Positions 10,380 through 45,653 of a stretch of 62,568 nucleotides of DNA are shown piece after piece. Within the stretch, counting starts at the first letter, position 1. Each line of letters opens with the position of its first letter. The position numbers were made by a program, and so were the translations under genes. This stretch comes from a virus (taxonomy: Duplodnaviria; Caudoviricetes): positions 1 to 62,568 of the IMG/VR virus record IMGVR_UViG_3300011417_000010; one strand, 5' to 3'. Below the pieces are notes generated by a model that did not search any database, was not told the origin of the DNA, and saw nothing but the letters and a program-made list of their open reading frames with translations.

Positions 10380-13274
10380 ATGCCGCAGGTAGCCCTCATC
10401 ACGGCCTACAATGGCAAGGGCCAGCTCCTCGTCGGCAAGCGAAACGACAATGAGCGGTACACCCTGCCGGGTGGCCACATCGAAAGCGGGGAGGACCCGT
10501 CCGCGGGCGCTCTCCGCGAGCTGTACGAGGAGACGGGTCTGCACGCGCAGAGCCTGTCCTTCCTGAGGCACTTCGTGACAAAGACCGGTGTCGAGCTTCA
10601 CTGCTTCAGTGCGTTCGTCACGGGCGAGCCGCACGGCAAGAACGACCCCGATCACGAGGTCAGCAAGTGGGAGTTCATCGACGTCGAGGAAGGTCTTCCG
10701 CCGAAGGTGTTCAACAACCTACACGGTCCCCAGGACGACGACAACCTCGTTACTCAGCTCTTCGACCTGCAGAAGGCAGAGGAGATGGGGCAGCGCGTGT
10801 GGCACTCGGACGGGAATGAGATCCACATCCCGTCGGAGATGCACCCGGACCGTCCTGCGTACGACGAGAACCACCTGAACGAGGTCCGCAAGACCTACAA
10901 GATGGACGTGCGACCGCTCAAGGTCGGGACCGAGCAGCTGACGACCACGCTGCCGTTGTCCAACCACGACCGTCACGACCTCTATCGCCGCATCTTTCGC
11001 GCGGGCGAGCACCTCCCGGCCATCGTCGTTGAGAAGACTGGCTCTGGGTATCGCGTCCTCGACGGGAACCACAAGGTCCACGCTGTTCGCTCCGAAGGTG
11101 GCGGCCAGATGGACGCCGTGGAGCTGATTCCTGACGAGATGCCACCAGAAATCCGCGAGGCGCACATGGCGAAGGCCGAGGACGAGGTCTACCGCCTACT
11201 CGACCACCCCAACGTCGCTGAGCGCACGATGGCGCTCAAGCTCGACTCGCTCCAACCGTCGCACCTTGACGCCGCTGCGCTCGACGCGGACCCGAAGGTG
11301 TACTCGGCCGCGATCGACCACGCCAAGTTCGGTCCGCTGCAGGGCCTACACCTCATGGAGGCGACGCAGGATAAGACCGGAGCGTTTCCCGCCAAGCAGA
11401 AGAATACGTTTCTCCAGCGTGGGGGCAGGGTGAAGCCCTACCACCTGACTGCGTACCTCAACTCCGCTCGGACTGCAGGTCACGACGAGTACGTGTGGGC
11501 TGTCGGGATGCTCACCTACCGTGGTACGCCTACGACCGACGCTATCTTGCGCAAGATCTACCTCGACAGCGGTCAGGTCGACTCAGCGTTGCGTCTCCAG
11601 GCCGTCGCCCACCCGAACGCCCCAGCCGACATCCTCGACCATGCCCTGGATTTGGGGTTCATGGTCCGCACGCCGGAGTCGTCCGAGTTCGCCAAGGGCG
11701 CGGCGGCGCACAAGAACGTGCTCAAGAGTTCGCTCGCTAGGATCGTCCACCGCGCAGCGGACCGCGGCGATGAGTACGAGGTCACTATCGCGCTCCATGC
11801 GCTGAGCAACAACACCGTCGGTGACGAGGTGGGTAGGTACCTTTTGACTCGCTCGATCGCGTCACCCACGTCGGCCGCCCCGCGTCTGCTCGGCGCGCTT
11901 CTGTCCGGTCCGTCCGGCACAAAGGAGCTGGCCGACGAAGCTCAGAAGCACCTTCAGCCGCAGGCCCTGCAGTACATCGTGGGCTCGCCGCACGCGGGCA
12001 CTGATGTGGTCGGAGCTGTGGTCGCCTCGGGCGACCCCGCCATGCTATCCAAGGCCATGGAGAGCCCGCACTTCGGCAACGAGCACCTCGCGCTGCTGGT
12101 GAAGCACGCCGAGGAGACGTTCGCGAAGTCGATCGACGAGAACGCCAAGGCGCTCGCGCAACACCCGGTGGTCTCGACGCAGCTCGGGTTCGACGAGACG
12201 AACAATCCTGCGTTTAAGGCGGCTAAGTTCTTGGCGATGGGTCAGGACCTCACCGACGAAGACCAGCGCCAGGCTCTCTACCACGAGGACGGCGACATGG
12301 AGCGAGCTGCGCTCCTAGCGTACGGTCTGCCCTGCACCGACGACAACCTGGCTGCGCTCCGCGCCGTCATGGACGTCCGCGACGTGAAGAAGAGCGCGCT
12401 GGACGGCTCCGTCCCCGTTGCGAACGCGGTCACCGCACACCCCGAGGGTAAGGACGTCGGTGACGCGATCGAGCGCGCCGTCAAGGACAACTTCGTGTTC
12501 CCAGTCGCGCTCGGTGGGAAGCACTCAGTCGGGTCAATGCTCGCTTACGACGACGAGACGCACACAACCTGGCTGCTCAAGTCGGGTAGTGGTGGCGCTG
12601 GCGGAGCCGCGGGCTCGAAGCAGGACCCCTCCAACCCCAACGCACGCGAGGCTGCATTCTACTACGTCGCGAAGGAGTGGGGGATTGAGAAGTGGTTCCC
12701 GCGCGCGGAGCTGCTACTGCTCGACGGGCAGCCGTTCGCCGCTCTCGCCCTGCTCCCGCTCAACTACAAGACGCTCGACAAGCGTGAGCACGATGACCAC
12801 GGCATCTCTCGCCGGATTCTGCACCCGATGCTGCACGACGGGACGCTCCACCAATGGGCGGTGATCGACTACGTGCTCGGCAACCCGGACCGTCACGGTC
12901 AGAACGTGATGGTAAACCCGAAGCACGATGTGCGGCTGATTGACCACGGCTCCGCGTTCGCGGGTTATTTGTTCGACCCCGCGCACGACCAGAACTCGTT
13001 CGTGCCGTACTACCTGCGCGCGTGGCACCTCGAAGGCTCGTTCAACCAGCTGCCGGCCGACCAGAAGCTGAAGGGCCTCCCCCGCGTGCACGAGGAGGTC
13101 GCGGTCAAGCTCACGGCCTGGATCGACTCCATCAAGGCTGACAAGCTCACCGAGATCTGCAAGCGCTACGGTATCAACCCCGAGCCCACGCTCACCCGCC
13201 TGGGCAAGCTCCAGGTAGCCGTCGCCAGCGAGCCAGCCGACCTGGCGATCAATAAACTTTGGGTCACGACCTAG
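10380..13274 (+). CDS. Multidomain protein: Nudix hydrolase + ParB-like nuclease + helical repeats + PI3/4-kinase/HipA-like kinase
   Basis: Nudix box GGHIESGEDPSAGALRELYEETG; ParB YRVLDGNHK; kinase DYVLGNPDRHGQN..LIDHG; domains separated by LQKAE, MAKAE, FAKS, VKKS. Confidence 0.8.
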   Translation: MPQVALITAYNGKGQLLVGKRNDNERYTLPGGHIESGEDPSAGALRELYEETGLHAQSLSFLRHFVTKTGVELHCFSAFVTGEPHGKNDPDHEVSKWEFIDVEEGLPPKVFNNLHGPQDDDNLVTQLFDLQKAEEMGQRVWHSDGNEIHIPSEMHPDRPAYDENHLNEVRKTYKMDVRPLKVGTEQLTTTLPLSNHDRHDLYRRIFRAGEHLPAIVVEKTGSGYRVLDGNHKVHAVRSEGGGQMDAVELIPDEMPPEIREAHMAKAEDEVYRLLDHPNVAERTMALKLDSLQPSHLDAAALDADPKVYSAAIDHAKFGPLQGLHLMEATQDKTGAFPAKQKNTFLQRGGRVKPYHLTAYLNSARTAGHDEYVWAVGMLTYRGTPTTDAILRKIYLDSGQVDSALRLQAVAHPNAPADILDHALDLGFMVRTPESSEFAKGAAAHKNVLKSSLARIVHRAADRGDEYEVTIALHALSNNTVGDEVGRYLLTRSIASPTSAAPRLLGALLSGPSGTKELADEAQKHLQPQALQYIVGSPHAGTDVVGAVVASGDPAMLSKAMESPHFGNEHLALLVKHAEETFAKSIDENAKALAQHPVVSTQLGFDETNNPAFKAAKFLAMGQDLTDEDQRQALYHEDGDMERAALLAYGLPCTDDNLAALRAVMDVRDVKKSALDGSVPVANAVTAHPEGKDVGDAIERAVKDNFVFPVALGGKHSVGSMLAYDDETHTTWLLKSGSGGAGGAAGSKQDPSNPNAREAAFYYVAKEWGIEKWFPRAELLLLDGQPFAALALLPLNYKTLDKREHDDHGISRRILHPMLHDGTLHQWAVIDYVLGNPDRHGQNVMVNPKHDVRLIDHGSAFAGYLFDPAHDQNSFVPYYLRAWHLEGSFNQLPADQKLKGLPRVHEEVAVKLTAWIDSIKADKLTEICKRYGINPEPTLTRLGKLQVAVASEPADLAINKLWVTT

Positions 13275-21084: not shown

Positions 21085-23112
21085 ATGGACGTTTACGTGT
21101 GCTGGGACGGTGACAAGATCGGCCGCAGGGTCGGGCGCGCTGTTTTGGGCAACGACGTCGGCGAAGTTCGCCGCGTGGACCAGGCCATCAACGCCGGGAA
21201 CGAGTTGTGGCGCAACTACGCCGTGAACAACGGCGGCTCGATCATCGAGATCGGTGGCGACGAGGGTCGCATCTCTGTTGATGCGTCCAAGCTGGCCGGT
21301 ATCCCCCAGGTCGCTGACCAGTACGCTCAGACCGTGGGCGCGACCGTGAGCGTGGGTATCGGCATGAAGCTCTCCGAGAGCGCGCAGGCTCTGATGGTCG
21401 CGAAGCTGCGCGGTGGGAACCATACGCTCGTCTGGGATAAGTCGATGCAGCCCGAGTACGACCAGGCCGCCAACCCGACGAAGACGGAGACGGACAAGCT
21501 CCACGAGGAGTACCTCGGGAAGGCCGCCAACGGCACCGCAGCGCCGAAGACGCAGACGGCAGGCGGTGAGGACGTCTCCCTCGTGCTCGCGCACAACACT
21601 AAGAAGCTCACCGGCCCGAACGCGGGGTTCTCGGTCCAGCACAAGCCAGGGTTCACCGACCAGAAGCCCTCCCAGGCTGCTGGAGCGCCTGAAAGTGCCT
21701 CCGACCCGAGCGCACCCGCCCCGCAGATGTCCAGCTCGTCCTCTTCGAGTCCCGACTTCGAGGGCCAGCTCCACGACGCGGCTCAGGGTCAGTCAGTCAC
21801 GGACGCGCAGTCATCCGACGCGTCGAAGGCGGACAACGACCAGCTCAAGAAGAAGCTCACCGACGCCCTGAAGAAGATCCGTGAGAACCTCCCGCTCATC
21901 GCGCAGATCCAGCAGCGCTCGCCGGAGGCCTACAAGGCAATCCTCGGTCTCGTCCAGGGTGTTATCGTGCTCGGGAAGCAGTTCATGAGCGCCCCGACGC
22001 CCGACGAGGAGCCGCAGCACATGAAGGAGGCTCTGGGCAAGGCTGAGGAGCCCCTGGAGAAGACCCAAGGTATGCCGACCTTCCCCAAGCTGGGTCTCGG
22101 CGACAACCGTCGCGAGACGCCGATTATCAGCACTCAGGGGGAGCTGAAGACGAAGACGGCGTCTATGAATGCCCACGCTGCTCGCGTGGAACCCACCGCT
22201 GCTCGTATGACGCCCGAGCAGGCTGGTAAGTCGGCAGCAGGATATACGAGTACCGTTCCGGGATCGCGCGTTTCGTACTCGCTCGACAACTCCCTCAGGG
22301 AGGCGCACGGCATGTCGGGTCCGCACGTGAGTCAGTTCAGTAATATGATTCACCAGCATCCCAACGCACCGCTGGCGACGCAGGAGCACGAGAACTTCCA
22401 CATGATGATGAATCGTGTGCAGGAGAAATACGGGCCTGAGGCGCGTAAGACTCTGGCTCGCGGTCTCTACCACTCGATCCCGGATGTGGATCGCAAGGCC
22501 GTCGATACCTTCACGGGCGCGCGCTCGCCGATGCACCCGTCACATCCCTACCTCCACGAGGAGAAGCTGGCCGTGCTGCACAACTACCTGAACAACCCAG
22601 GCGAGAGGCAGGCGTTTCACACGTACTTCAAGAACACGCCCGAGCAGGCCCAGGCGTTCGACTCTGCCATCAAGCGCGCTCACCGCCGCGTCCAGGAGGT
22701 TGCGCAGACCGTCGATGAAAAGTACCTGATGCCGCCTACGATGAAATCGGAGATGAGCGCGGAGTCCGACGAGTGCCCGAAGTGCGGCCACAAGGAGTTC
22801 ATCCCGCACAAGGACGGCAGCAAGACCTGCAAGGGCTGCTTCAAGGACTACAGCTTGGCGAAGGGCGACGTCTCTGGCGAGCTGCAGATGGCTGCGGCGG
22901 AGCTTCCGTCAGCTGGCTCTCCTGAGGACAAGCGAGCCCTGAAGCTACCGATGGGCGCCCTCGTCGACGGCAAGGTCAAGGTCAAGCACTCTGACGGCAC
23001 CGCTGGCTGGAAACAGGTTCAGTCTGGCATGATCCAGGCCCAAGACCCGGGCGTCCCGCTCTATGGGGCGAACAGTCACCCGGTCTCCTCTCGCGAACCC
23101 TCGTCCAACTAA
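21085..23112 (+). CDS. Multidomain protein: mCpol (minimal CRISPR polymerase-like cyclase) + HExxH metallopeptidase-like + zinc ribbon
   Basis: YVCWDGDKIGRRV..IGGDEG..TVSVGIG is the mCpol pattern; HENFH; CPKC..CKGC; LGKAA, LGKAE, TMKSE separators; AATCTT upstream. Confidence 0.7.
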   Translation: MDVYVCWDGDKIGRRVGRAVLGNDVGEVRRVDQAINAGNELWRNYAVNNGGSIIEIGGDEGRISVDASKLAGIPQVADQYAQTVGATVSVGIGMKLSESAQALMVAKLRGGNHTLVWDKSMQPEYDQAANPTKTETDKLHEEYLGKAANGTAAPKTQTAGGEDVSLVLAHNTKKLTGPNAGFSVQHKPGFTDQKPSQAAGAPESASDPSAPAPQMSSSSSSSPDFEGQLHDAAQGQSVTDAQSSDASKADNDQLKKKLTDALKKIRENLPLIAQIQQRSPEAYKAILGLVQGVIVLGKQFMSAPTPDEEPQHMKEALGKAEEPLEKTQGMPTFPKLGLGDNRRETPIISTQGELKTKTASMNAHAARVEPTAARMTPEQAGKSAAGYTSTVPGSRVSYSLDNSLREAHGMSGPHVSQFSNMIHQHPNAPLATQEHENFHMMMNRVQEKYGPEARKTLARGLYHSIPDVDRKAVDTFTGARSPMHPSHPYLHEEKLAVLHNYLNNPGERQAFHTYFKNTPEQAQAFDSAIKRAHRRVQEVAQTVDEKYLMPPTMKSEMSAESDECPKCGHKEFIPHKDGSKTCKGCFKDYSLAKGDVSGELQMAAAELPSAGSPEDKRALKLPMGALVDGKVKVKHSDGTAGWKQVQSGMIQAQDPGVPLYGANSHPVSSREPSSN

Positions 23113-27616: not shown

Positions 27617-30127
27617 ATGGCTCTGAGTTTCGCAACCCCAGCTGGCGTGATGAAGATTCCCAGCGCTCGCTCGACCATCAACGTGGTCCAGCAGGCGTCT
27701 GGTCTCGCTACGACCGGCATCATCATGATCGTCGGTGAGGCGGACCAGGGTCCGGACTTCACGCAGGAAGAGGACCTGGCGGACAACCTGTTCGGCCCGA
27801 ACCAGATCGGTGAGGTCCGCGCCAAGTACGGCACGGGTCGCATCGTCGACGCGTTCAACGGCATCGCCGTCCCCGCCAACGACCCCCAGATCCAGGGTGC
27901 TCCTGCCGGCATCATCATCGTGAAGACGAACGCGGGCAGCAAGGCCGACGCGACGCTCACGAAGTTCGACGACACCGACTACGGTACGCTCGAAGACCGC
28001 ACGTGGGGCAAGCTCGGCAACCTGATCTCGTACCTCATCGAGGCCCGCACCGAGGAAGAGGTCCCGACCACGGGCGAGTTCGCCATCGCGCACCCGTCCT
28101 CGTCCACCAACATCTCTGTTCGCGTGAACGGCGGTACGGCTCTGTCCGCCACCCTCGCCGCGCTCGACAGCCCCGCCACGATGGCCGCCACCATCGGCGC
28201 GCTCGCTGGCGTCGACACTACGGGCGCTGTGTCTCGCGCGGTGCTCACCAACACGACCGGTACGCTCGCGATCACGGTCACGGTCGGTAACCACGTCACG
28301 ATCGACCGCAGCATCGCGTTCAACAACCTCCCATCGACGGGTGACTCGCTGTTCATCCCGACGACCTCGGCGATGGCGACGTCGAACGCTGCCGCGGCCG
28401 GTTCGTACATCGTGACGGGCGCCAGCTCGACGCAGATCCAGGCCGTCAAGGTCCTGGACGCGACGGGTGTGGCTACCATCACCCCGCCGACCAGCAAGGC
28501 CGCAACGGCCATCGTCGGCACGAGCGACGTCAACGCGTGGAGCCCCCTCGCGATCCACCTCGTCGAGTCCATCGACCCCCTCGATGGCTACGGCAAGAAC
28601 CTGCAGATCAACCAGCTGACCTCGGGCACCGACATCCTCGCGTCGATCTGCTACACGCTCAGCGACGCTGGTGAGCCCGTGGCGGTCGACTGGATCTCGA
28701 AGACGGCGGAGCCTCACCTGATCGTTTCGGAGTCGGAGTACTCGGTCACCCTGACCGAGGCGCGCCAGCTCGACAACATCACGAACGACATCTCGGCGGG
28801 CGGTACCATCGCGCTCAAGCTCGGCTACGAGGGCACCACCGGCTCGGCCGTGGTCGACTCGACGGACATCACGATCACCACGACTGGTGGCTCGACCCCG
28901 GGCACGCTGGCTGTGGCGCTCGCGGACTTCCCCAGCATCGCCGACCTCGCGTCCTACATCAACTCGTTCGCGGGTTTCACGTGCACCCCCGGCTCGGGCG
29001 TCATGGGCTCGCAGCCCTCGACCAGCCTCGACCAGGGCACGTTCGGCATCTGCTCGACCTTCAGCGACCTGACCCCGGGCCGCATCAAGCAGGACGCGTA
29101 CAAGCTCTTCAACACGCTGGCCAACGACGGCTTCCTCACGGAGCTGTCGGAGCAGGCGGACTCGGGTCTCCCGGCTCCGTCGGTGGGCCTCGCGTTCCTC
29201 ACGGGCGGCGCCAAGGGCGCGACGACGAACGCCGACATCCAGGCCGGGTACGACGCGCTCAAGATGGTCCGCGGCAACTTCCTCGTCCCGCTGTTCTCAC
29301 GTGACGCTGCTGACGACATCGCGGACGGTCAGACCGACGCGGCCTCGACCTACACGATCGCTGCGGTCCACGCTGGCGCTCGCTCGCACGTACTCCAGAT
29401 GAGCACGTTCAAGAAGGGCCGCAACCGCCAGGCGTTCCTCTCGATGCGCGACGACTTCGACGACGTGAAGGACGCTGCGACGGACCTGAACTCTGCACGT
29501 GTCTCGCTCACGTTCCAGGACGTGCGCGACCTCGACACCAACGGCAACGTGACCCAGTTCCAGCCGTGGATGAACTCGTGCAAGGCCGCGGGCATGCAGG
29601 CCGCGGGCTTCTACAAGGCCATCTTCAACAAGGGCATCAACATCAGCGGCGCCATCCAGGCCGCGACGGACTTCAACGACCAGGACGACGACGCGGTCGA
29701 GGAAGGCCTCGACGCCGGCCTCCTGATCGTCCGTCGCCCCGAGGACGGTGGATTCAAGTACGTGTCCGACCAGACGACGTACGGCAAGGACGACAACTTC
29801 GTCTACAACAGCATCCAGGCGGTCTACGCGGCGGACACCATCGCGCTGACCACCGCGAAGCTGATGGAGCAGGCGTTCGTCGGCCAGTCCCTCGCTGACG
29901 TGAGCGCCTCGCTCGCGCTGAGCACCCTCGAAGGCATCATGGAGAACCTGCGTCGGCTGAAGCTGATCGCGTTCTCGGACGACGCCCCCAAGGGCTTCAA
30001 GAACGCGGTCATCCGCATCAGCGGACCGGCCATGGTTGTCTCGGTCGAGGTGAAGGCGGCCACCGCGCTGTACTTCATCCCGATCACCTTCCAGGTGTCT
30101 CAGATCCAGCAGTCGGCCAGCTCGTAA
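27617..30127 (+). CDS. Tail sheath protein
   Basis: 836 aa; IMIVGEADQGP N-terminus, FLTGGAKG, C-terminal LYFIPITF; upstream of the tube gene. Confidence 0.85.
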   Translation: MALSFATPAGVMKIPSARSTINVVQQASGLATTGIIMIVGEADQGPDFTQEEDLADNLFGPNQIGEVRAKYGTGRIVDAFNGIAVPANDPQIQGAPAGIIIVKTNAGSKADATLTKFDDTDYGTLEDRTWGKLGNLISYLIEARTEEEVPTTGEFAIAHPSSSTNISVRVNGGTALSATLAALDSPATMAATIGALAGVDTTGAVSRAVLTNTTGTLAITVTVGNHVTIDRSIAFNNLPSTGDSLFIPTTSAMATSNAAAAGSYIVTGASSTQIQAVKVLDATGVATITPPTSKAATAIVGTSDVNAWSPLAIHLVESIDPLDGYGKNLQINQLTSGTDILASICYTLSDAGEPVAVDWISKTAEPHLIVSESEYSVTLTEARQLDNITNDISAGGTIALKLGYEGTTGSAVVDSTDITITTTGGSTPGTLAVALADFPSIADLASYINSFAGFTCTPGSGVMGSQPSTSLDQGTFGICSTFSDLTPGRIKQDAYKLFNTLANDGFLTELSEQADSGLPAPSVGLAFLTGGAKGATTNADIQAGYDALKMVRGNFLVPLFSRDAADDIADGQTDAASTYTIAAVHAGARSHVLQMSTFKKGRNRQAFLSMRDDFDDVKDAATDLNSARVSLTFQDVRDLDTNGNVTQFQPWMNSCKAAGMQAAGFYKAIFNKGINISGAIQAATDFNDQDDDAVEEGLDAGLLIVRRPEDGGFKYVSDQTTYGKDDNFVYNSIQAVYAADTIALTTAKLMEQAFVGQSLADVSASLALSTLEGIMENLRRLKLIAFSDDAPKGFKNAVIRISGPAMVVSVEVKAATALYFIPITFQVSQIQQSASS

Positions 30128-33798: not shown

Positions 33799-34125
33799 GT
33801 GGGCAAGACCAAGATCAAACAGCTCGTCCAGAAGAAGTGGAACCTCGGACATCTTCGATCGCAGAAGTTCGCAGGCCTTATTTTCTGCACCACGCTGTGC
33901 TTCTGCGCTGGGTTGTTTCAGTACAGTGAGCCGACGACCTCCGTGGTCATCATGGGCATTGTCGGATGCTTCACTGCGTTCGTTGGCGGTCGTGCGTGGA
34001 GCGACAACGCGGCCATGAAGTTTGGTGGATTTCCTCCCAACACGACTGACGACGAGGTCAGTGTCGTGCGCCGTAGGCCGAAGAAGAACGACGAAGAAAA
34101 GGACAAAGAACGTGAAGTCGATTAA
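33799..34125 (+). CDS. Putative holin
   Basis: LRSQKF followed by two TM segments and a highly charged C-terminus. Confidence 0.5.
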   Translation: MGKTKIKQLVQKKWNLGHLRSQKFAGLIFCTTLCFCAGLFQYSEPTTSVVIMGIVGCFTAFVGGRAWSDNAAMKFGGFPPNTTDDEVSVVRRRPKKNDEEKDKEREVD

Positions 34126-34549
34126 GCGAATCCTCAAGACCCAGCCCCCGACGATCTACAAGAGGGTCGACGAGGTGGAGGTTGGCGGTCCCATCGGCCG
34201 CTGGTTCCACAAGCACAACTGGGGCGCGATGACGATCCCGTTCCCGTTCTTCGTGCTCATCATGTACTGGAGTTCGGAGGACGCGCCCGACGGCGAGGTT
34301 CACCCGCTGGTGCGCGTGCACGAGTTCACTCACGTCGCGCAGGACCAGCTCGACCGCTTCTGGTTCGTGTCGTGGGCGAAGTACCTCTGGTGGCTGTTCT
34401 CGGGCGTGCCGTGGAAGAAGGTCTTCAAGCGCGAGATGGGCATCATCGATGGGTTCATGGACTCGTACTACCACGTGCCGTACGAGCAAGAGGCCTACGC
34501 CGTCGAGCAAGAGGCCGAAGAGAACGGCTTGCCCGCCTGGGCGAAGTAG
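34112..34549 (+). CDS. HExxH metallopeptidase-like protein (DUF4157-like)
   Basis: VHEFTHVAQ..PYEQEAY. Confidence 0.6.
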   Translation: MKSIKRILKTQPPTIYKRVDEVEVGGPIGRWFHKHNWGAMTIPFPFFVLIMYWSSEDAPDGEVHPLVRVHEFTHVAQDQLDRFWFVSWAKYLWWLFSGVPWKKVFKREMGIIDGFMDSYYHVPYEQEAYAVEQEAEENGLPAWAK

Positions 34550-34567
34550 AGTAGAATCCCGGTCGTC

Positions 34568-34741
34568 ATGGCCGTTGACCGCTACAAGAACAAGATCAAG
34601 CACGCTGCGTGGACGTGGCGCGAGGAGAAGGTCTCCCGCTACCACCTCCCCGCGCGTCGCAAGGATCGTGCGTCGGGGCGCAACGACAAGCGCTCCGCTC
34701 GTCAGGAAGACCGTCGCGACATTTTCGAGGAGTCAGAATGA
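34568..34741 (+). CDS. Small basic protein (57 aa)
   Basis: ATG 34568; ATGA overlap with the next ORF. Confidence 0.45.
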   Translation: MAVDRYKNKIKHAAWTWREEKVSRYHLPARRKDRASGRNDKRSARQEDRRDIFEESE

Positions 34742-34881
34742 ACCCGTTTCGCTACATCAAGGACCACGCTCCGAACCCAAAGAACTCCGATGGAGGAATC
34801 CTCGCTGTCGTTGGGTACTACGTCGCTATCCTGGCAGTGGCCGGTGGCGTCATCGGTCTGGTCTGCAAGATCCTGCTCTAG
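34738..34881 (+). CDS. Small membrane protein
   Basis: GAGGAG RBS; single TM segment. Confidence 0.5.
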   Translation: MNPFRYIKDHAPNPKNSDGGILAVVGYYVAILAVAGGVIGLVCKILL

Positions 34882-34969
34882 AAAATTTGACAGGGCGCGG
34901 ACACCCTTGGGTCGGGGCGCTTCAATCATGGGTTCAATCAACCTGGGCCTGTCCATTCACTTGACGTAG

Positions 34970-34990
34970 AGATTCGCTAGAGGTAATCTT
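34970..34990 (+). promoter_or_regulatory. Tandem promoter motifs for tRNA operon 1
   Basis: AGATTCGCTA-N5-AATCTT. Confidence 0.65.
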
Positions 34991-35002
34991 AGGATCACCC
35001 CG

Positions 35003-35050
35003 ATGTTCCGTCAGTTGCTATCCCCTTTGTCTCTGTTGCTGCTCGCGTAA
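35003..35050 (+). CDS. Putative leader peptide MFRQLLSPLSLLLLA (7 Leu) of the tRNA-Leu operon
   Basis: AGGA 8 nt upstream of ATG; lies between the promoter motifs and three tRNA-Leu genes; stop codon sits in the CTCGC-GTAA-GCGAG hairpin. Confidence 0.65.
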   Translation: MFRQLLSPLSLLLLA

Positions 35051-35093
35051 GCGAGTACAAGCACACCCGCGCGCGCAGCGCGCACAGAAATAG

Positions 35094-35177
35094 GCGATCG
35101 TGGCGGAATTGGTAGACGCGCGGGCTTGAGGTGCCCGTGGGCTAACGCCCGTGCAGGTTCGAGTCCTGTCGATCGCA
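35094..35177 (+). tRNA. tRNA-Leu(GAG)
   Basis: GCGATCG/CGATCGC acceptor; CGGGC-TTGAGGT-GCCCG; long variable arm; TTCGAGT loop. Confidence 0.92.
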
Positions 35178-35182
35178 CCCTT

Positions 35183-35260
35183 GCCACTGTAGCCCAACCG
35201 GAAGGAGGCGCTCCGCTCAGAACGGAGACAGTGTGGGTTCGAATCCCATCAGTGGTACCA
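35183..35260 (+). tRNA. tRNA-Leu(CAG), short variable loop
   Basis: CTCCG-CTCAGAA-CGGAG; TTCGAAT; encoded CCA. Confidence 0.88.
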
Positions 35261-35261
35261 T

Positions 35262-35335
35262 GCGCTCGTAGCTCAACTGGAAGAGGCAGAGGCTTCAAAC
35301 CCCTCGTGTTGTCGGTTCGAATCCGACCGGGCGTA
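35262..35335 (+). tRNA. tRNA-Leu(CAA), short variable loop
   Basis: GAGGC-TTCAAAC-CCCTC (C31:C39 mismatch); Leu-type D arm; A discriminator. An alternative register would give TCA. Confidence 0.7.
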
Positions 35336-35352
35336 CTTGACAAGCTGCAGAG

Positions 35353-35373
35353 AGATTTGCTAGACATAATCTT
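35353..35373 (+). promoter_or_regulatory. Tandem promoter motifs for tRNA operon 2
   Basis: AGATTTGCTA-N5-AATCTT, same spacing as operon 1. Confidence 0.65.
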
Positions 35374-35385
35374 GAGAGAAGTTCC

Positions 35386-35517
35386 ATGAACGCTGAGATC
35401 ACATCGTACGTCGGCAGCACGGGTCAACGAACCCGACGCCAGACGTATATTCAGCGTCATACCCAGCGCCCACGACAGGGTGCGTTCGACCGCTTCGATC
35501 CCACCAGGGATCAATAA
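35386..35517 (+). CDS. Putative 43-aa leader peptide of tRNA operon 2 (MNAEITSYVGSTGQRTRRQTYIQRHTQRPRQGAFDRFDPTRDQ)
   Basis: Lies between the promoter motifs and the first tRNA; composition matches the downstream tRNA set; embedded in a long hairpin. Confidence 0.65.
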   Translation: MNAEITSYVGSTGQRTRRQTYIQRHTQRPRQGAFDRFDPTRDQ

Positions 35518-35521
35518 GCGC

Positions 35522-35544
35522 AAAAAGCCGGGACGCCCGGCAAA
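35522..35544 (-). terminator. GC hairpin with T-tract on the minus strand
   Basis: AAAAA-GCCGGG-ACG-CCCGGC-AAAG on the plus strand. Confidence 0.45.
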
Positions 35545-35552
35545 GATCGAAC

Positions 35553-35626
35553 GGCACCCTAGCTCAGTCTGGTAGAGCGGCGCCCTGAAAAGGCGCGCGT
35601 CCCTGGTTCAAATCCAGGGGGTGTCA
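35553..35626 (+). tRNA. tRNA-Phe(GAA)
   Basis: GCGCC-CTGAAAA-GGCGC; canonical cloverleaf. Confidence 0.92.
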
Positions 35627-35634
35627 CTGCTCTT

Positions 35635-35709
35635 CCCGCTGTAAGCTTCCGGTGAGGCTGCTCCACTGTCTATGGAGTGAGACGAGTTCAACTCTCGTCA
35701 GCGGGGCCA
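35635..35709 (+). tRNA. tRNA-Asp(GTC)
   Basis: CTCCA-CTGTCTA-TGGAG; G discriminator; CCA. Confidence 0.88.
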
Positions 35710-35734
35710 GACATCCTCACCAACGCGTCGATCG

Positions 35735-35805
35735 CTGGGCGTAGGATATTGGGTATCTCCCGGTCCCGGAAGCCGGTTAAGCAGGTTCGATTCCTGCCGC
35801 CCAGA
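35735..35805 (+). tRNA. tRNA-Pro(CGG)
   Basis: CTGGGCG/CGCCCAG acceptor; loop CCCGGAA (C33). Confidence 0.8.
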
Positions 35806-35810
35806 CCCAT

Positions 35811-35884
35811 GGTGGCCGTAGTGTACTGGCTGTGCACGTCGTGCTGTGAACACGGAAGTTCCGGATCGTAACCGGACAGTCACC
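35811..35884 (+). tRNA. tRNA-His(GTG)
   Basis: G-1 and C discriminator; loop CTGTGAA; atypical T-loop ATCGTAA. Confidence 0.85.
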
Positions 35885-35919
35885 CTTCTTTGAAAATTAA
35901 ATAGCTGACCATGTTCTTT

Positions 35920-36003
35920 GGGGACGTATACCGGTAGAGGGCCGGGGCAGATTGTAAACCTGTCGTCTCGGCTCCGTAGGCGCAACTCCTACCGGCCCCA
36001 CCA
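35920..36003 (+). tRNA. tRNA-Tyr(GTA)
   Basis: Loop TTGTAAA; long variable region; ACCA end; atypical D and T loops. Confidence 0.75.
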
Positions 36004-36005
36004 AT

Positions 36006-36076
36006 GCTGGTGTCGTTCAATGGCAGGACACTCCCTTCGTACGGTAGAAATGAGGGTTCGATTCCTTCTTCCAGCT
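36006..36076 (+). tRNA. tRNA-Thr(CGT)
   Basis: Loop TTCGTAC; GCTGG/CCAGC acceptor with mismatches. Confidence 0.75.
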
Positions 36077-36083
36077 CAGCAGT

Positions 36084-36157
36084 GCCGGCGTCGTTCAACG
36101 GCAGGACAGCTGCCCAGTAAGCAGCCTATGAGGGTTCAATTCCTTCCCCCGGCTCCA
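36084..36157 (+). tRNA. tRNA-Thr(AGT)
   Basis: GCTGC-CCAGTAA-GCAGC; CCA; paralogous to the preceding Thr tRNA. Confidence 0.82.
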
Positions 36158-36163
36158 AAATAT

Positions 36164-36237
36164 TGCCTTGTCGTCTAGCGGCAGGATGCCTGACTCTGAC
36201 CCAGGTGACGATCGTTCGAATCGATCCGAGGCAACCA
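36164..36237 (+). tRNA. tRNA-Gln(CTG)
   Basis: Loop CTCTGAC; U1 acceptor; CCA. Confidence 0.88.
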
Positions 36238-36238
36238 C

Positions 36239-36309
36239 ACGCGAATAGTTCAGTGGCAGAACTGCCGCCCGATTAGCGGCTGACGAGGGTTCGATTCCCT
36301 ACTCGCGTA
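36239..36309 (+). tRNA. tRNA-Ile(GAT)
   Basis: GCCGC-CCGATTA-GCGGC (C33, U37); A discriminator. Confidence 0.75.
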
Positions 36310-36314
36310 CTCAT

Positions 36315-36389
36315 CTCGTCGTGGTGGAATGGACATCACGTAGCCCTGCGAAGGCTGAATTCCAGGTTCGACTCCTGGCGGCGAGACCA
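36315..36389 (+). tRNA. tRNA-Arg(GCG)
   Basis: TAGCC-CTGCGAA-GGCTG; CCA. Confidence 0.88.
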
Positions 36390-36390
36390 A

Positions 36391-36462
36391 CCCCTGATAG
36401 TGGAATGGACACCACGCTCCGCTTCGAACGGTGAAGTCCGGGTTCAACTCCTGGTCGGGGGA
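36391..36462 (+). tRNA. tRNA-Arg(TCG)
   Basis: CTCCG-CTTCGAA-CGGTG; D arm nearly identical to the preceding Arg tRNA. Confidence 0.85.
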
Positions 36463-36467
36463 CAAGA

Positions 36468-36539
36468 TCCCCTGTCGTCTAACGGCAGGATGTCGGCCTT
36501 TGACTCCCGACGATGCTCGTTCGAATCGAGCCGGGGGAA
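36468..36539 (+). tRNA. tRNA-Gln(TTG) with one extra base in the anticodon arm
   Basis: TCGGC-CTTTGAC-TCCCGA; D and T arms match the Gln(CTG) paralog. Confidence 0.75.
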
Positions 36540-36565
36540 CATTTTGAAAGGAGCGGCAGCGCGGG

Positions 36566-37093
36566 TTAGGACCCCGAGACCTCAGTGTCTCTGGTGGGGG
36601 TCGCCCGCGCTGCCGCGGGAGCGCCTACTGATTCGAGCGCGTACTCGGTACAGTCGCGGCATGGCTTGTCGCCATCGGCTTGGATGCAGTCGGCGAACTC
36701 GTGCGGCGTGCTCACCCACACGAACGGTCGCCAGGGCCTCGGGCCCTGCGGCTTGCGCACCCCGTCAGCCCCCGCCCTCCACCTCCCGGCACGCTTGTGC
36801 TGCTTGTCGGGGCTCTTCGGGTTGGGCACGCGCACAAACCTCTGGAACACGGTCGGCTCCTTCGATCCTGGCTTCACCGAGGTTTCCGCGGCCTGGTAGA
36901 AGCTCAGGACGTACTTCTCGCGATCCCCGTCGCCGGCCACGCCGCGGTTCAGCTGGCCCTTGTGCCAGGTGTTCCTGCGCTCCGCGCACGGCCCGCAGTA
37001 GGCCACGCCCCATCGGCGGTCGAAGTCGCCCGAAGCGGGGTGGTAGGGACCCCCACAACAGAAGCATCGCGTCGGTGGATCCGTGGTGTCCAT
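36566..37093 (-). CDS. Hypothetical protein with zinc finger
   Basis: CFCC..CGPC; sigma70 promoter upstream. Confidence 0.55.
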   Translation of the reverse strand: MDTTDPPTRCFCCGGPYHPASGDFDRRWGVAYCGPCAERRNTWHKGQLNRGVAGDGDREKYVLSFYQAAETSVKPGSKEPTVFQRFVRVPNPKSPDKQHKRAGRWRAGADGVRKPQGPRPWRPFVWVSTPHEFADCIQADGDKPCRDCTEYALESVGAPAAARATPTRDTEVSGS

Positions 37094-37102
37094 CAGACTC
37101 AC

Positions 37103-37142
37103 AATCTACTTGAGTAGACCCGATCTGTCAATAGATTCGCTA
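37103..37142. promoter_or_regulatory. Divergent promoters: sigma70-type (minus) and AGATTCGCTA (plus)
   Basis: Minus strand TTGACA-17-TAGATT (37131-37103); plus-strand motif at 37133-37142. Confidence 0.6.
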
Positions 37143-37150
37143 GGAAATAC

Positions 37151-37882
37151 ATGGGAGGCCCCTTGAAATCACTCCTTGCCGCGCTCGTGTTTTTGTTCAC
37201 CCTCTCGACTGCGCACGCGGCGGGGCTCACCCAGCCTCCCCCGTTCAACCCCGTCATCGTCCCCATGCTCTCGCCTCCCGTCGCGCCCTTCACCGCGCGG
37301 GCCGCGCCGGCAGGGGTGACGCCAGGCACCGTTCGCGCATTCCGTCTTTCAGCTCCGATCGACGCTGGCGCCGTCAGGGCGGTCACCGAGTTCTTGGAGA
37401 GGGCTCGCCAGGACCACACCGAGATTGTCATGATCGAGATGACGACCCCGGGCGGTAGCTACGGCGCTGGCCACGACATCTCGCGTCAGATCGAGAACTC
37501 TCCCGTCACGGTCGTATGCGTCGCCGACAGCATGGTAGCGTCCATGGGCCTCTACATCCTCCAGTCGTGTGACCGCAGGGTCATCACCACGCGTGGGATC
37601 TTGATGGCTCACAGCGCGCTCACGAGCACGCCCGAGGCGATGGAGAACGAGCACGACCTGCAGAACAAGGTCAACCTGCTGAAGGCGCTCAACCGAGCGT
37701 ACGGCAGTCACGTCGTCCTCCGCGCGAATATCACCATCGACCAGTACCTCGCCCGCATCGCGGACGGCAAGGAGTGGTGGATCAACGCCGACGAGGCCCT
37801 GAAGGTCGGTCTGGCGGACACCATCTGGAAGGGCACGCCCAGCGCCCTACTGAAGGCGCTCAAAGACGGCCAGAGGCCCTAG
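37151..37882 (+). CDS. ClpP/crotonase-fold serine protease with signal peptide
   Basis: TPGGS, VASMG (Ser), LMAH (His), EWWINADEALKVGLAD; signal peptide ending AHA. Confidence 0.75.
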   Translation: MGGPLKSLLAALVFLFTLSTAHAAGLTQPPPFNPVIVPMLSPPVAPFTARAAPAGVTPGTVRAFRLSAPIDAGAVRAVTEFLERARQDHTEIVMIEMTTPGGSYGAGHDISRQIENSPVTVVCVADSMVASMGLYILQSCDRRVITTRGILMAHSALTSTPEAMENEHDLQNKVNLLKALNRAYGSHVVLRANITIDQYLARIADGKEWWINADEALKVGLADTIWKGTPSALLKALKDGQRP

Positions 37883-38235
37883 CGGAACAGGTCCTGGATC
37901 GCCCTCAAGGGCTTGGTGGTCTTGTCCTCTAGACCCTTGAGTGCTTTCCGCAGCATCTTCTGGGCCAGACCCCACTCGAACCCCTCCTCCAGCACCGCGT
38001 CGAAGTAGGCGCCCAGTGCCTCGGCCGTGGCAGCGCTGTAGGCTGCTTCCACCGCGCTCGCGGCCATCGGCATGACGTTGTGCTCCAGCGTGTCGGGCTC
38101 GGGGCACTCCACCTGAGGTATGCTGCCACCGGCCTGGACCAGCATAGAGTCTTCGTACCTCCACCTACCTGTCTTGTTCGGGTCCGATAGTACGACCGAC
38201 CCGTCCGCCCGGATGTCGATGAGCTTCCGCGGCAT
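37879..38235 (-). CDS. Hypothetical protein
   Basis: GGAGAGG RBS. Confidence 0.55.
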   Translation of the reverse strand: MPRKLIDIRADGSVVLSDPNKTGRWRYEDSMLVQAGGSIPQVECPEPDTLEHNVMPMAASAVEAAYSAATAEALGAYFDAVLEEGFEWGLAQKMLRKALKGLEDKTTKPLRAIQDLFR

Positions 38236-45194: not shown

Positions 45195-45600
45195 GGGCCT
45201 GAACCGGTATCGACTGGTGAACAAGGAACTGAGACGCGTGCCGAGGTTGGTCATCAGGCCTCGTAAAAAGAAGACCAAAACACAAAAGCGAAGAACGATG
45301 AGTTCGACGTCCCGTTCGACCTGGTGGTCGCGGCGGGTTTCGGTGGTGGTCCCAGCGCTCGCGCTTGGAACTAACCATTGAAGATCGGCGAGTAGAGGTC
45401 CCAGGTACCTCGTCGATTCAAAACTAGGGAACGTCTAGTCGGAGCGAATCTGGCTTGTTCTTGGACGTAAACCAAGTGGTGGAGGGCGCCGGAAACGGAT
45501 CGTGGAGGTTCTCGACCTCCCGCCCCCGAAATCGAGAAACGCACGTATAAAGCTTGGTTACGAAGTCGCTAGGACCGCGGTTCGACTCCGCGCAGGTCCA
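45195..45600 (+). ncRNA. ssrA: tmRNA
   Basis: 5' GGGCCTG..GGTATCGAC pairs with 3' GGAC-CGCGG-TTCGACT-CCGCG-CAGGTCC-A, giving the G3:U70 Ala identity pair; internal tag frame 45288-45374 starts GCG after an A-rich stretch. Confidence 0.88.
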
Positions 45601-45653
45601 CTTAGTTTTACTGTAGCACTTAGATTCGCTAGATAATAACTTAAGGAGTACGC

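What the first reader, a model, noticed from the sequence alone, without database searches (positions are those of the whole stretch)
35386..35552. 43-aa multi-amino-acid leader peptide mirrors a 12-tRNA operon
Seen: downstream tRNAs serve F, D, P, H, Y, T(x2), Q(x2), I and R(x2). 32/43 peptide residues, and 28 of the last 30 (including 18 in a row), belong to this set, and all nine are present. The three amino acids with two tRNAs are the most frequent (R8, Q6, T6). Both isoacceptor codon types are used (CGA and CGY; CAA and CAG; ACG and ACC/ACA). Exceptions: one AGG and the Pro codons CCA/CCC are not cognate to the encoded anticodons. The ORF also folds into a long hairpin (ACGCTGA/TCAGCGT, TACGTC/GACGTA, CGGGT/ACCCG) plus three small hairpins. 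Inference: an OR-gate sensor for loss of any of nine tRNA families, broader than ilvGMEDA or thrL leaders.
Basis: partly seen in the sequence, partly recalled or inferred. Interest (0 to 1): 0.88.

Follow-up and report, generated by a model that had tools for sequence, protein, structure and literature searches.

The report
Leader peptides that mirror phage tRNA operons
A phage related to Myxococcus phage Mx1 starts each of its tRNA gene clusters with a tiny gene whose peptide is built from the same amino acids as the tRNAs that follow, which points to an undescribed way of tuning tRNA supply by ribosome sensing.

Summary
The 43-codon ORF at 35386-35517 has 32 of 43 residues, 28 of the last 30 and 18 in a row from F, D, P, H, Y, T, Q, I and R. 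These are the amino acids of the 12 tRNAs downstream.

It ranks first of 455 small ORFs in the contig. None of 9,767 structure-preserving shuffles reaches its count.

The pattern repeats independently:
- In the window, a 15-codon ORF with 7 Leu (35003-35050) precedes three Leu tRNAs.
- In the closest relative, G001, four leaders precede the tRNA units. A Leu leader precedes the Leu tRNAs. The orthologous nine-amino-acid leader precedes the same 12 tRNAs.
- A third leader there has 31 of 38 residues from N, V, A, K, M, G, W and E, ahead of exactly those tRNAs. A fourth has 8 Ser in 14 residues, ahead of tRNA-Ser.
- The leader-by-tRNA-set table gives chi-square 74.9, p = 2e-15.

Reading frames are kept in 11 leader sequences held as DNA and in 9 further metagenomic peptides.

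The RNA structure is also conserved. A hairpin holds the start codon. A three-way junction has a closing helix that pairs leader codons with the 5' acceptor strand of tRNA-Phe. There is no U-tract terminator.

Best reading: these are ribosome-sensed leader peptides that control tRNA operons. The output step is inferred, and I found nothing like it in print.

The parts
34971..34989 (+). Promoter-like phage motif GATTCGCTAGA followed by TAATCT, upstream of the Leu leader
   Evidence: The motif occurs 9 times in the window against 0.65 expected, always just upstream of start codons. A TTGACG lies 17 nt before the TAATCT.
35003..35050 (+). Leu leader ORF: 15 codons, 7 of them Leu (TTG x3, CTG x2, CTC, CTA), stop TAA
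   Evidence: It was the top hit of an unbiased screen of 191 ORFs upstream of tRNA runs. Orthologs exist in G001, L049, L052 and L053. Binomial P = 8.6e-5.
35040..35085 (+). Two hairpins after and over the end of the Leu leader. One is a 7-bp stem with a GUAA loop that holds the stop codon. The other is a 6-bp G+C hairpin with a 3-nt loop, followed by ACAGAA. End coordinates are read off the fold by eye and are approximate.
   Evidence: Fold. The second hairpin differs in sequence but keeps its pairing in G001, L052 and L053.
35094..35336 (+). tRNA-Leu GAG, tRNA-Leu CAG, and a third tRNA (35262-35336) that is the ortholog of Leu CAA with an 8-nt anticodon loop
   Evidence: ARAGORN labels the third tRNA 'SeC tca'.
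35354..35372 (+). Promoter-like motif GATTTGCTAGA followed by TAATCT, upstream of the 43-codon leader
   Evidence: TAATCT lies 11-16 nt before the ATG in the five leaders of the window and G001 and in two Leu leaders of relatives (L052 9 nt, L053 10 nt). L049 L1 has it 21 nt before the ATG. The L049 Leu and L052 L1 leaders have CAATCT instead.
35386..35517 (+). The finding: a 43-codon leader ORF (type L1) mirroring tRNAs for F, D, P, H, Y, T, Q, I and R
   Evidence: There are orthologous ORFs in G001, L049/L051 and L052, plus proteins P0002-P0006.
35386..35460 (+). Hairpin H1 with the AUG in its base, wholly inside the ORF (codons 1-25)
   Evidence: Folds. All four orthologs have the same architecture with largely different sequences.
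35461..35476 (+). C-rich single-stranded linker containing the conserved CCAGCGCCCA (codons 26-31)
35477..35560 (+). Three-way junction. P1 pairs 35477-35489 with 35547-35560, and its 3' strand includes the first bases of tRNA-Phe. P2 is 35491-35520 and carries the last codons and the stop. P3 is 35527-35541, a G+C hairpin with a triloop and no U tract.
   Evidence: Read off the alignment by eye, compensatory changes occur at three P1 pairs and two P3 pairs. A shuffle control for the tRNA-5'-strand pairing is reached in 0-9 of 100 shuffles in the four genomes.
35553..36540 (+). 12-tRNA operon: Phe, Asp, Pro, His, Tyr, Thr, Thr, Gln, Ile, Arg, Arg, Gln

Best explanation
The ORF at 35386-35517 is a real leader ORF at the 5' end of a phage tRNA transcription unit. 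It is one member of a set of unit-specific leader peptides in a clade of phages related to Myxococcus phage Mx1.

Each tRNA unit starts with a phage promoter motif, then a short untranslated stretch, an ATG and a 14-54-codon ORF. That ORF is rich in the amino acids, and largely in the codons, that the unit's own tRNAs decode. A ribosome translating the leader therefore moves at a speed set by the supply of those aminoacyl-tRNAs, and its position decides how the leader RNA folds.

In the 43-codon leader the last 12 or so codons form one strand of helix P1. The other strand of P1 is the spacer plus the first seven bases of tRNA-Phe. Without a ribosome the leader traps the 5' acceptor strand of the first tRNA. 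With a ribosome on codons 28-43 that strand is free to form the tRNA.

I infer that output is gated at the level of precursor folding or 5' processing, or possibly by factor-dependent termination. I do not think a classic hairpin-plus-U-tract terminator is involved.

Shown here: the anatomy, the composition match, the conservation of the frame and the conservation of the RNA structure. Inferred: translation, the coupling of stalling to output, and the sign of the response. I favour scarcity leading to more tRNA, but only weakly.
For: 1. Match in the window. The 43-codon leader has 32 of 42 residues after Met1 in the operon's set, and 29 of 42 codons are directly cognate to the operon's anticodons. 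It ranks 1st of 455 small ORFs. None of 9,767 structure-preserving shuffles reaches it. Binomial P is 2e-6.

2. Independent replicates with different amino-acid sets.
- Window Leu leader: 7 Leu in 14 residues, before three Leu tRNAs.
- G001 leader before Asn, Val x2, Ala, Lys x2, Met, Gly x2, Trp and Glu tRNAs: 31 of 38 residues in that set.
- G001 leader before the lone tRNA-Ser: 8 Ser in 13 residues.
- The 3x3 table of leader type by tRNA set gives chi-square 74.9, p = 2e-15.
- All 29 tRNAs that ARAGORN calls in G001 lie in these three clusters. Four units there start with a matching leader. The Arg TCT/CCT pair, which sits behind a 547-nt gap, has none.

3. An unbiased screen of 191 ORFs upstream of tRNA runs in 12 loci put these leaders in the top three places.

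4. In all 11 leaders held as DNA, the in-frame reading matches its own tRNA set better than both other frames.

5. The frame is kept.
- Four L1 orthologs differ by many insertions and deletions but all stay open.
- The P2 loop is 2, 3, 3 or 4 nt long, yet the distance from CCC to TAA is always 12 nt.
- Five further L1-type peptides (27-33 set residues each) and three further peptides of the N/V/A/K type (26-31 of 38-39) are predicted in other metagenomes.

6. Co-variation. The one Leu leader with 3 Cys codons (L049) is the one whose unit also carries tRNA-Cys. The three whose units were seen without tRNA-Cys (window, G001, L052) have no Cys codon.

7. Both window leaders sit 20-21 nt behind a motif that occurs 9 times against 0.65 expected and that precedes start codons of protein genes.

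8. RNA.
- All four L1 orthologs have the same H1 plus three-way junction, with compensatory changes in P1 and P3.
- Fold z-scores are -4.95 and -5.35.
- In all four, the ribosome-free minimum-energy fold pairs 6-7 of the first 7 tRNA-Phe bases with the leader.
- A 27-nt ribosome mask on the last third of the ORF releases them.
- Shuffled leaders reach that pairing in 0-9 of 100 trials.

9. The sequence is not an assembly slip. Contigs from other samples carry the same letters.
Against: - There is no direct evidence of translation or regulation.
- The AUG is paired in the base of H1 and the Shine-Dalgarno-like stretch is weak (GAG only).
- There is no U-tract terminator on the + strand. The scan found only a minus-strand site at 35541-35527. 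Relatives do use canonical hairpin-plus-U-run terminators elsewhere, so the output step is unknown.
- In the fold model only codons 28-43 matter. It does not explain the many cognate codons 14-27 inside H1.
- The pairing with the tRNA 5' strand is above chance only for the L1 type. For the Leu and N/V/A/K leaders, shuffles reach it in 26-56 of 100 trials, and the Ser leader does not show it.
- The mirror is imperfect. The long Leu leaders of L049, L052 and L053 have G/V/S/T/K-rich N-terminal parts with no matching tRNA downstream: 5-9 of 40-50 residues match.
- 5 of 8 Ser codons are UCN, which is not cognate to the anticodon GCU.
- 7 Ala codons in the N/V/A/K leader are not cognate to Ala CGC.
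- Pro CCA and CCC are never cognate.
- For the window ORF alone, dinucleotide shuffles give only P = 0.004-0.006.
- More distant relatives show no such leaders in the screen. These are Mx1, G005, G006, G008 and G009, at 56-65% capsid identity.
Confidence: 0.7

Rival explanations
1. The sensor is the same but the logic is reversed. This would be a phage-owned, stringent-like control. When the cognate charged tRNAs or amino acids are scarce, the ribosome lags in codons 14-27. P1 then closes on the tRNA-Phe 5' strand, and the unit's tRNAs are not matured. The phage would stop making tRNAs that cannot be charged.
For: In the fold model a ribosome at codons 1-27 leaves the leader paired to the tRNA 5' strand in all four genomes. 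Only a ribosome that has reached the last third of the ORF frees it. Most cognate codons of the 18-residue run lie in codons 14-31. That stable-RNA synthesis falls under amino-acid starvation in bacteria is recalled general knowledge, not tested here.
Against: The prediction rests on equilibrium folds, not on kinetics. The last 13 codons are also rich in cognate codons (F, D, R, F, D, P, T, R, D, Q), and stalling there would open P1. No data here can fix the sign of the response.
Confidence: 0.25
2. This is a structured non-coding 5' leader, for example a processing or stability signal for the polycistronic tRNA precursor. The open frame and its composition would be by-products.
For: The RNA structure is strong and conserved, with compensatory changes. 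The F-to-L change in the orthologs is one half of a compensated base pair in P1. The AUG is buried in H1. In 62% G+C DNA open frames of 43 codons are common: 81 ORFs of 30 aa or more lie in 6 kb.
Against: Structure-preserving shuffles do not give the composition: 0-9 stop-free shuffles per leader reach the observed count in the four L1 leaders, 0 in the N/V/A/K leader and 22 of 15,839 in the Leu leader. Four leader types with different structures each match their own tRNA set. The in-frame reading is best in 11 of 11 leaders. Insertions and deletions keep the frame.
Confidence: 0.08
3. This is a small basic protein with a job of its own, such as binding tRNA or RNA, that merely happens to be encoded ahead of the tRNAs.
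For: The C-terminal motif QGA(L/F)DRFDP is conserved in all ten L1-type sequences seen; in one of them (P0003) it ends at DRFDA. The peptide has 8 Arg in 43 residues.
Against: The conserved C-terminal codons are exactly the P1 and P2 strands, so RNA constraint explains them. The N-terminal halves diverge in sequence but keep their composition. The Leu, Ser and N/V/A/K leaders are unrelated peptides with the same positional rule. There is no Pfam-type family to test against, and peptides of 14-15 residues are unlikely to fold.
Confidence: 0.05
4. The match is a chance effect of A+C-rich local composition and of post-hoc selection by the first reader.
For: Dinucleotide shuffles raise the expected count to 25 of 42 and give P = 0.004-0.006 for this one ORF. 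The other + frames of the stretch also score 23 and 25.
Against: There are independent replicates with other amino-acid sets and other base compositions. The unbiased screen supports it. The ORF is conserved in relatives.
Confidence: 0.02

Closest known systems
Multi-amino-acid leader peptides of biosynthetic operons in enterobacteria (ilvL of ilvGMEDA, thrL). Recalled from general knowledge.
   Same: A short ORF at the 5' end of the transcript is rich in codons for several amino acids tied to the operon's products. It overlaps conserved RNA hairpins, and ribosome position is the presumed signal.
   Different: The regulated genes here are tRNAs, not enzymes. Up to nine amino acids are represented. 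No hairpin-plus-U-tract terminator follows. There is no match to any Rfam leader family at E <= 1. The host is a phage.
leuL and pheL single-amino-acid leaders, and the pheM leader of the pheST synthetase operon. Recalled from general knowledge.
   Same: The window's Leu leader ends in LLLLA. The G001 Ser leader looks like a single-amino-acid leader. pheM shows that leader peptides can control a component of the translation apparatus.
   Different: The target is the tRNA itself, so the sensed molecule and the product are the same species. The stop codon sits in a GNRA loop, and a G+C hairpin without a U run follows.
T-box riboswitches. Recalled from general knowledge.
   Same: The logic is the same: expression of translation-related genes is set by the supply or charging of a specific tRNA.
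   Different: T-boxes bind the tRNA directly without a ribosome or an ORF, and each senses one tRNA. No T-box match was found in 34000-38000.
Phage tRNA gene clusters (for example T4, T5, and Mx1 with 22 annotated tRNAs; PMC10720576, passages read)
   Same: A dense same-strand array of tRNA genes lies in a large tailed-phage genome. The nearest isolate by capsid protein is Mx1, at 56% identity.
   Different: I found no leader ORFs reported for such clusters. The Mx1 clusters themselves show none in my screen.

Membership tests
Ribosome-mediated transcription attenuators (trpL/leuL/hisL/thrL/ilvL type) | A short ORF at the 5' end of the transcript, upstream of the regulated genes | tested here: met
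   The ATG lies 20-21 nt after the phage promoter-like motif. The ORF ends 35 nt before tRNA-Phe. The Leu leader has the same layout.
Ribosome-mediated transcription attenuators (trpL/leuL/hisL/thrL/ilvL type) | The ORF is enriched in codons for the amino acid(s) that the operon serves | tested here: met
   32 of 42, 7 of 14, 31 of 38 and 8 of 13 residues in the four leader types. Chi-square 74.9, p = 2e-15.
Ribosome-mediated transcription attenuators (trpL/leuL/hisL/thrL/ilvL type) | An intrinsic terminator (G+C hairpin directly followed by a U run) between the leader ORF and the first gene | tested here: not met
   The P3 hairpin at 35527-35541 is followed by AAAGAUCG. The scan found no + strand terminator. 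The orthologs have ACAAAC after P3. Canonical U-run terminators exist elsewhere in relatives.
Ribosome-mediated transcription attenuators (trpL/leuL/hisL/thrL/ilvL type) | Mutually exclusive RNA pairings selected by ribosome position | tested here: inconclusive
   An alternative exists between leader-P1 and the tRNA-Phe acceptor stem and depends on a ribosome mask. It is not a terminator/antiterminator pair, and it is above chance only for the L1 type.
Rfam leader families (Leu, Thr, His, Trp and Phe leaders) and T-box | A match to the curated covariance model | tested here: not met
   cmscan of 34000-38000 at E <= 1 returned 12 tRNA matches and one sub-threshold plastid UTR match. No leader or T-box family matched.
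L1-type tRNA-operon leader (family defined here) | A 42-53-codon ORF ending in QGA(L/F)DRFDP plus 4 codons, followed by P3 and tRNA-Phe | tested here: met
   The window ORF aligns with G001, L049 and L052 and with P0002-P0006. The tRNA context was seen for four DNA loci only.
Phage tRNA operon | A same-strand array of tRNA genes with short spacers in a phage genome | tested here: met
   ARAGORN tRNAs (12 of them also match Rfam), and two more are identified by homology, all within 35094-36540. Capsid and tail-sheath genes lie on the contig.

The most novel reading that the evidence does not exclude
A clade of large phages, probably infecting Myxococcota, runs a private feedback circuit for tRNA supply. 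Every tRNA transcription unit carries its own leader peptide, and together these partition the amino acids: Leu(+Cys), F/D/P/H/Y/T/Q/I/R, N/V/A/K/M/G/W/E, and Ser. Ribosome speed on that leader gates maturation of the unit's tRNAs. The gate is an 'anti-acceptor' helix that holds the 5' strand of the first tRNA, not a transcription terminator. This would let the phage switch on exactly those tRNAs that run short during infection. Shortage could arise when host tRNAs decay or are cut by anticodon nucleases.
Probability: 0.35. Interest if true: 0.95.

Novelty: new variant of a known kind. Interest (0 to 1): 0.9.

Why it matters
Leader-peptide attenuation has been a textbook mechanism for fifty years. 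As far as I know, and as far as six full-text searches show, it has only been described for enzyme and synthetase genes.

Here the same kind of sensor sits in front of tRNA genes, so the molecule that is sensed is the molecule that is made. That is the simplest possible feedback loop on decoding capacity.

It also bears on an open question in phage biology: why large phages carry tRNAs, and when they use them. A leader tuned to the unit's own tRNAs suggests the tRNAs are made on demand.

The system is compact and modular, with four leader types and up to nine amino acids read by one ORF. It shows natural variation, such as Cys codons appearing together with a Cys tRNA. It can be tested directly with reporters, northern blots and RNase P assays.

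If the output really is control of tRNA folding through an anti-acceptor helix, that step would be new in itself.

Tried and rejected
- Close relatives in the INPHARED phage set by DNA: only scattered tRNA hits.
- The search for related loci with the neighbouring Clp-like protein: no relatives.
- Exact and degenerate DNA patterns from the leader and from the odd tRNA-Asp: in IMG/VR only G001; in the metagenome collection nothing.
- A pattern on the P2 hairpin brought seven loci. All are unrelated sequences without tRNAs.
- More distant relatives were searched for the cluster: G002-G015 by DNA, and Mx1, G004-G006, G008 and G009 by tRNA model. Their tRNA clusters were screened for matching leader ORFs and none stood out. 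This shows absence of evidence in those records only.
- A classic terminator/antiterminator reading was considered and dropped, because no U tract follows P3 or the Leu-leader hairpins.
- A Rho-loading (rut) explanation for the C-rich composition of the L1 leader was considered. It cannot explain the G-rich N/V/A/K leader or the Leu and Ser leaders.
- The idea that every leader traps the 5' strand of its first tRNA was tested and holds above chance only for L1.
- RNA evidence: one 243-nt contig of a metatranscriptome library covers 35484-35726 in one piece. That stretch is the leader's 3' end, tRNA-Phe and the Asp region. Contigs cannot show strand, ends or level, and DNA may be present in such libraries, so I give it no weight.
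- The habitat labels of the runs (freshwater sediment, groundwater) are noted only.
The genomic context of P0002-P0006, P0008 and P0010-P0012 could therefore not be seen.
- Supplementary files of papers were not opened.
Full report
**What the window is.** The 62,568-base record is the whole assembly held, at about 62% G+C. It encodes a major head protein (4925-6310, phrog_752), a tail sheath (27617-30127) and tail-fibre-like proteins, plus a Clp-like protease, 13 ARAGORN-called tRNAs and a tmRNA. By capsid protein its relatives in IMG/VR are mostly 130-182 kb contigs, so the window is probably a fragment. The nearest isolate is Myxococcus phage Mx1, at 56% capsid identity. The closest relative found, here called G001, is a 182-kb IMG/VR contig with terminal repeats and 79% capsid identity.

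- The ORF at 35386-35517 reads exactly as the finding says. It has 32 of 43 residues in {F,D,P,H,Y,T,Q,I,R}, 28 of the last 30 and 18 in a row, with 8 Arg, 6 Gln and 6 Thr.
- The codon statements are also right.
- ARAGORN calls ten of the twelve downstream tRNAs. Asp GTC and Tyr GTA are not called at default settings. They align with tRNAs that are called Asp GTC and Tyr GTA in G001, which has the same twelve tRNAs in nearly the same order; only the two Thr genes are swapped.
- The long hairpin and the smaller ones are in the predicted fold, which is far more stable than shuffles (z = -4.95).

**Is it more than chance?**
- Within the contig the ORF ranks first of 216 ORFs of 35-60 aa and first of 455 ORFs of 30-100 aa for the fraction of residues in the set. 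Only 70 of 59,082 stop-free 43-codon windows reach 32.
- The stretch is A+C-rich. Dinucleotide shuffles of the ORF itself average 25 of 42 and reach 32 in 0.4-0.6% of cases. On its own, after a post-hoc pick, that would be suggestive and no more.
None of 9,767 stop-free shuffles reaches 32.
- Against the amino-acid usage of 49 likely genes of the contig (set fraction 0.40), the binomial P is 2e-6.

**The decisive evidence is replication.**
1. *In the window itself.* The three Leu tRNAs at 35094-35336 are preceded by a 15-codon ORF at 35003-35050, MFRQLLSPLSLLLLA, with 7 Leu. It sits behind the same promoter-like motif.
2. *The Leu leader in G001.* The same Leu leader is there (6 Leu in 13 residues after Met1).
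3. *The L1 ortholog in G001.* The ortholog of the 43-codon leader is a 46-codon ORF with 32 of 45 residues in the set.
4. *A second G001 cluster.* It holds Asn, Val, Val, Ala, Lys, Met, Gly, Gly, Lys, Trp and Glu tRNAs. It starts with a 39-codon ORF, MLTNTNVNVMIAEANKAEANVCAAGMGWAGGAKVEATLK. Of its 38 residues after Met1, 31 are N, V, A, K, M, G, W or E, and only 4 belong to the other set.
5. *The lone tRNA-Ser GCT of G001.* It is preceded by MKRTSSSSPSSSSR, with 8 Ser.

Taken together, all 29 tRNAs that ARAGORN calls in G001 lie in these three clusters. Four units start with a leader that mirrors them. The Arg TCT/CCT pair, behind a 547-nt gap at the end of the second cluster, has none. The table of three leader types by three tRNA sets gives chi-square 74.9, p = 2e-15.

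An unbiased screen of 191 ORFs upstream of tRNA runs in 12 loci, including Mx1 and four more distant relatives, placed these leaders first, second and third. In all 11 leaders held as DNA the in-frame translation matches its own set better than either shifted frame; for example 31 against 9 and 12, and 8 against 1 and 2. Structure-preserving shuffles give P <= 0.0014 for each of the six leaders tested.

**More relatives and conservation of the frame.** A 22-base stretch of the Leu leader found four more contigs: L049 (identical to L054), L051, L052 and L053.
- L049, L051 and L052 carry the L1 leader ahead of the same kind of operon. The peptides have 45 and 43 residues and hold 32 and 31 set residues.
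- The four DNA orthologs differ by many insertions and deletions, yet all stay open. The P2 loop is 4, 3, 2 or 3 nt long, but the stretch from the conserved CCC to the TAA is always 12 nt.
- A profile search found five further L1-type peptides in other metagenomes, with 27-33 set residues each.
- A full-library search with the 39-residue leader found three further relatives, with 26-31 of 38-39 residues in their set.
- In L049, L052 and L053 the Leu leader is longer (41-51 codons), and its N-terminal part does not mirror the unit. That weakens a strict mirror.
- The L049 version has three Cys codons, and its unit alone carries a tRNA-Cys. The versions of the window, G001 and L052, whose units were seen without tRNA-Cys, have no Cys codon.
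- The N-terminus of the window's L1 leader resembles the N-terminus of those long Leu leaders, so it looks like a recombinant.

**Codon level.** In the L1 leaders 28-30 of 42-45 codons are directly cognate to the unit's anticodons under standard wobble, and nearly all same-amino-acid codons are cognate. The match is looser elsewhere. Five of the 8 Ser codons are UCN and 7 Ala codons are GCC or GCT, none of them cognate to the unit's anticodon. The leaders use rare codons more than the genes do. Examples are TTG x3 of 7 Leu against 8% in genes, CGA x3 of 8 Arg against 15%, and CAA x2 of 6 Gln against 11%.

**RNA anatomy.** All four L1 orthologs fold alike.
- *H1.* A long hairpin (35386-35460 in the window) has the AUG paired in its base. 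Its sequence differs widely between genomes.
- *Linker.* A C-rich single-stranded linker contains the conserved CCAGCGCCCA.
- *Three-way junction.* P1 pairs the codons for G-A-(F/L)-D-R with the spacer plus the first seven bases of tRNA-Phe. P2 carries the last codons, with the stop just after it. P3 is a 6-bp G+C hairpin with a 3-nt loop, followed by ACAAAC.
- *Compensatory changes.* Read off the alignment by eye, they occur at three P1 pairs (U-A/C-G, G-C/U-A, C-G/U-A) and two P3 pairs (G-C/A-U, G-C/C-G).
- *The Leu leaders.* They share the last module: a hairpin holding the final Leu codons with the stop in a GUAA loop, then a G+C triloop hairpin, then ACAGAC.

**Terminators.** No + strand terminator is predicted. 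P3 has a T run only on the opposite strand. Relatives have clear hairpin-plus-U-run terminators elsewhere, so this clade does use canonical terminators, and P3 is probably not one.

**A possible output step.** I folded the transcript from the presumed start to the end of tRNA-Phe.
- The ribosome-free minimum-energy structure pairs 6-7 of the first 7 tRNA bases with the leader in all four genomes.
- Masking 27 nt around codons 28-42 frees them. In the window, G001 and L052 this restores the native acceptor stem; in L049 it does not.
- Shuffled leaders reach this pairing in 6, 0, 7 and 9 of 100 trials.
- For the Leu and N/V/A/K leaders the same prediction is not above chance (26-56 of 100), and the Ser leader lacks it.

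I therefore hold the 'anti-acceptor' model for the L1 type only, and as an inference. It also leaves the cognate codons 14-27 inside H1 without a role. H1 may act as a pause or single-round device, as in classical attenuators (recalled), but I did not test this. The sign of the response is open. A lagging ribosome would leave P1 closed, while a ribosome stalled in the last third would hold it open.

**Comparison with what is known.** The sensor works like the leader peptides of ilvGMEDA, thr, leu, phe and pheST (recalled). It is not a member of those families. No Rfam leader or T-box model matches at E <= 1, and the defining terminator is absent.

Full-text searches found no paper describing leader ORFs before tRNA genes. 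The terms combined leader peptide, tRNA operon, phage, attenuation, ribosome stalling and myxophage. For some searches I saw only the listings and the starts of abstracts. For the Mx1 genome note (PMC10720576) and a 2026 preprint on myxophages I read the passages with 'tRNA'; neither mentions leaders. Subscription papers are not covered by these searches.

**Independent samples.** Contigs of three other DNA runs carry the region. Two of them span the 43-codon ORF with no difference, apart from A>C at 35503 in one of them. That change is Thr40 to Pro in the P2 loop, and both residues belong to the set.

**Verdict.** My confidence that the composition match is an evolved feature is about 0.9. 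That it acts as a ribosome-read sensor controlling tRNA output, about 0.7. That the output is the P1 anti-acceptor helix, about 0.35.

Noticed in passing
window 35262-35336: ARAGORN labels this tRNA 'SeC, anticodon tca'. It is the ortholog of tRNA-Leu CAA in G001, L049 and L052, with one extra T in the anticodon loop, giving an 8-nt loop. Contigs of two other runs that cover it list no difference there, so it is not an assembly slip of this record. Whether it decodes UUG, UGA or four bases is open.
   Followed up: partly
window 36468-36540: The last tRNA of the operon gets a four-base anticodon call ('ttga') and is the ortholog of Gln TTG in relatives. One contig of run X5 lacks one letter at 36506, in the anticodon stem. 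This is the second tRNA of the cluster with an enlarged anticodon loop.
   Followed up: partly
window 45195-45601: A phage-encoded tmRNA with an unusual 28-residue tag. A phage that carries its own ribosome-rescue RNA next to stall-sensing leaders may be worth a joint look.
   Followed up: no
window 6430, 13276, 31175, 34971, 35354, 37134, 39315(-), 45623, 61705: The motif GATTCGCTAGA (allowing one mismatch) occurs 9 times against 0.65 expected. It always lies 6-21 nt upstream of a start codon. It is probably the phage's own promoter element, and several genes would then be leaderless or nearly so. G001 has the variant GATTCGATAGA.
   Followed up: partly
window 35891-35904: The AT-rich 14-mer TGAAAATTAAATAG lies between tRNA-His and tRNA-Tyr. 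It is unique in the window. It is also found inside the second tRNA cluster of G001, and with one change at the same place in G001's first cluster. It could be an internal promoter or a processing signal.
   Followed up: partly
window 35527-35541, minus strand: Read on the opposite strand, the P3 hairpin is followed by TTTTT and scores as an intrinsic terminator. It could stop antisense transcription coming from the minus-strand gene at 36566-37102.
   Followed up: no
window 21085-23112 and 10380-13274: A 675-aa protein has an N-terminal minimal CRISPR polymerase (mCpol) domain. A 964-aa protein has a NUDIX domain and a PI3/PI4-kinase-like stretch. Both are unusual for a phage.
   Followed up: no
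window 35386-35427 versus L052 7429-7470: The N-terminus of the window's 43-codon leader (AEITSYVGSTGQ) resembles the N-terminus of the long Leu leaders of relatives (ETVISVGSTGQ). This suggests recombination between leader types.
   Followed up: partly
L023 2821-3242 (G001), between the Leu tRNAs and the L1 leader: G001 has a gene of about 140 codons plus a U-run terminator inserted between the two tRNA units. The window has only 49 nt between the third tRNA (end 35336) and the L1 ATG (35386). In the window the Leu unit may therefore read through into the second leader.
   Followed up: no
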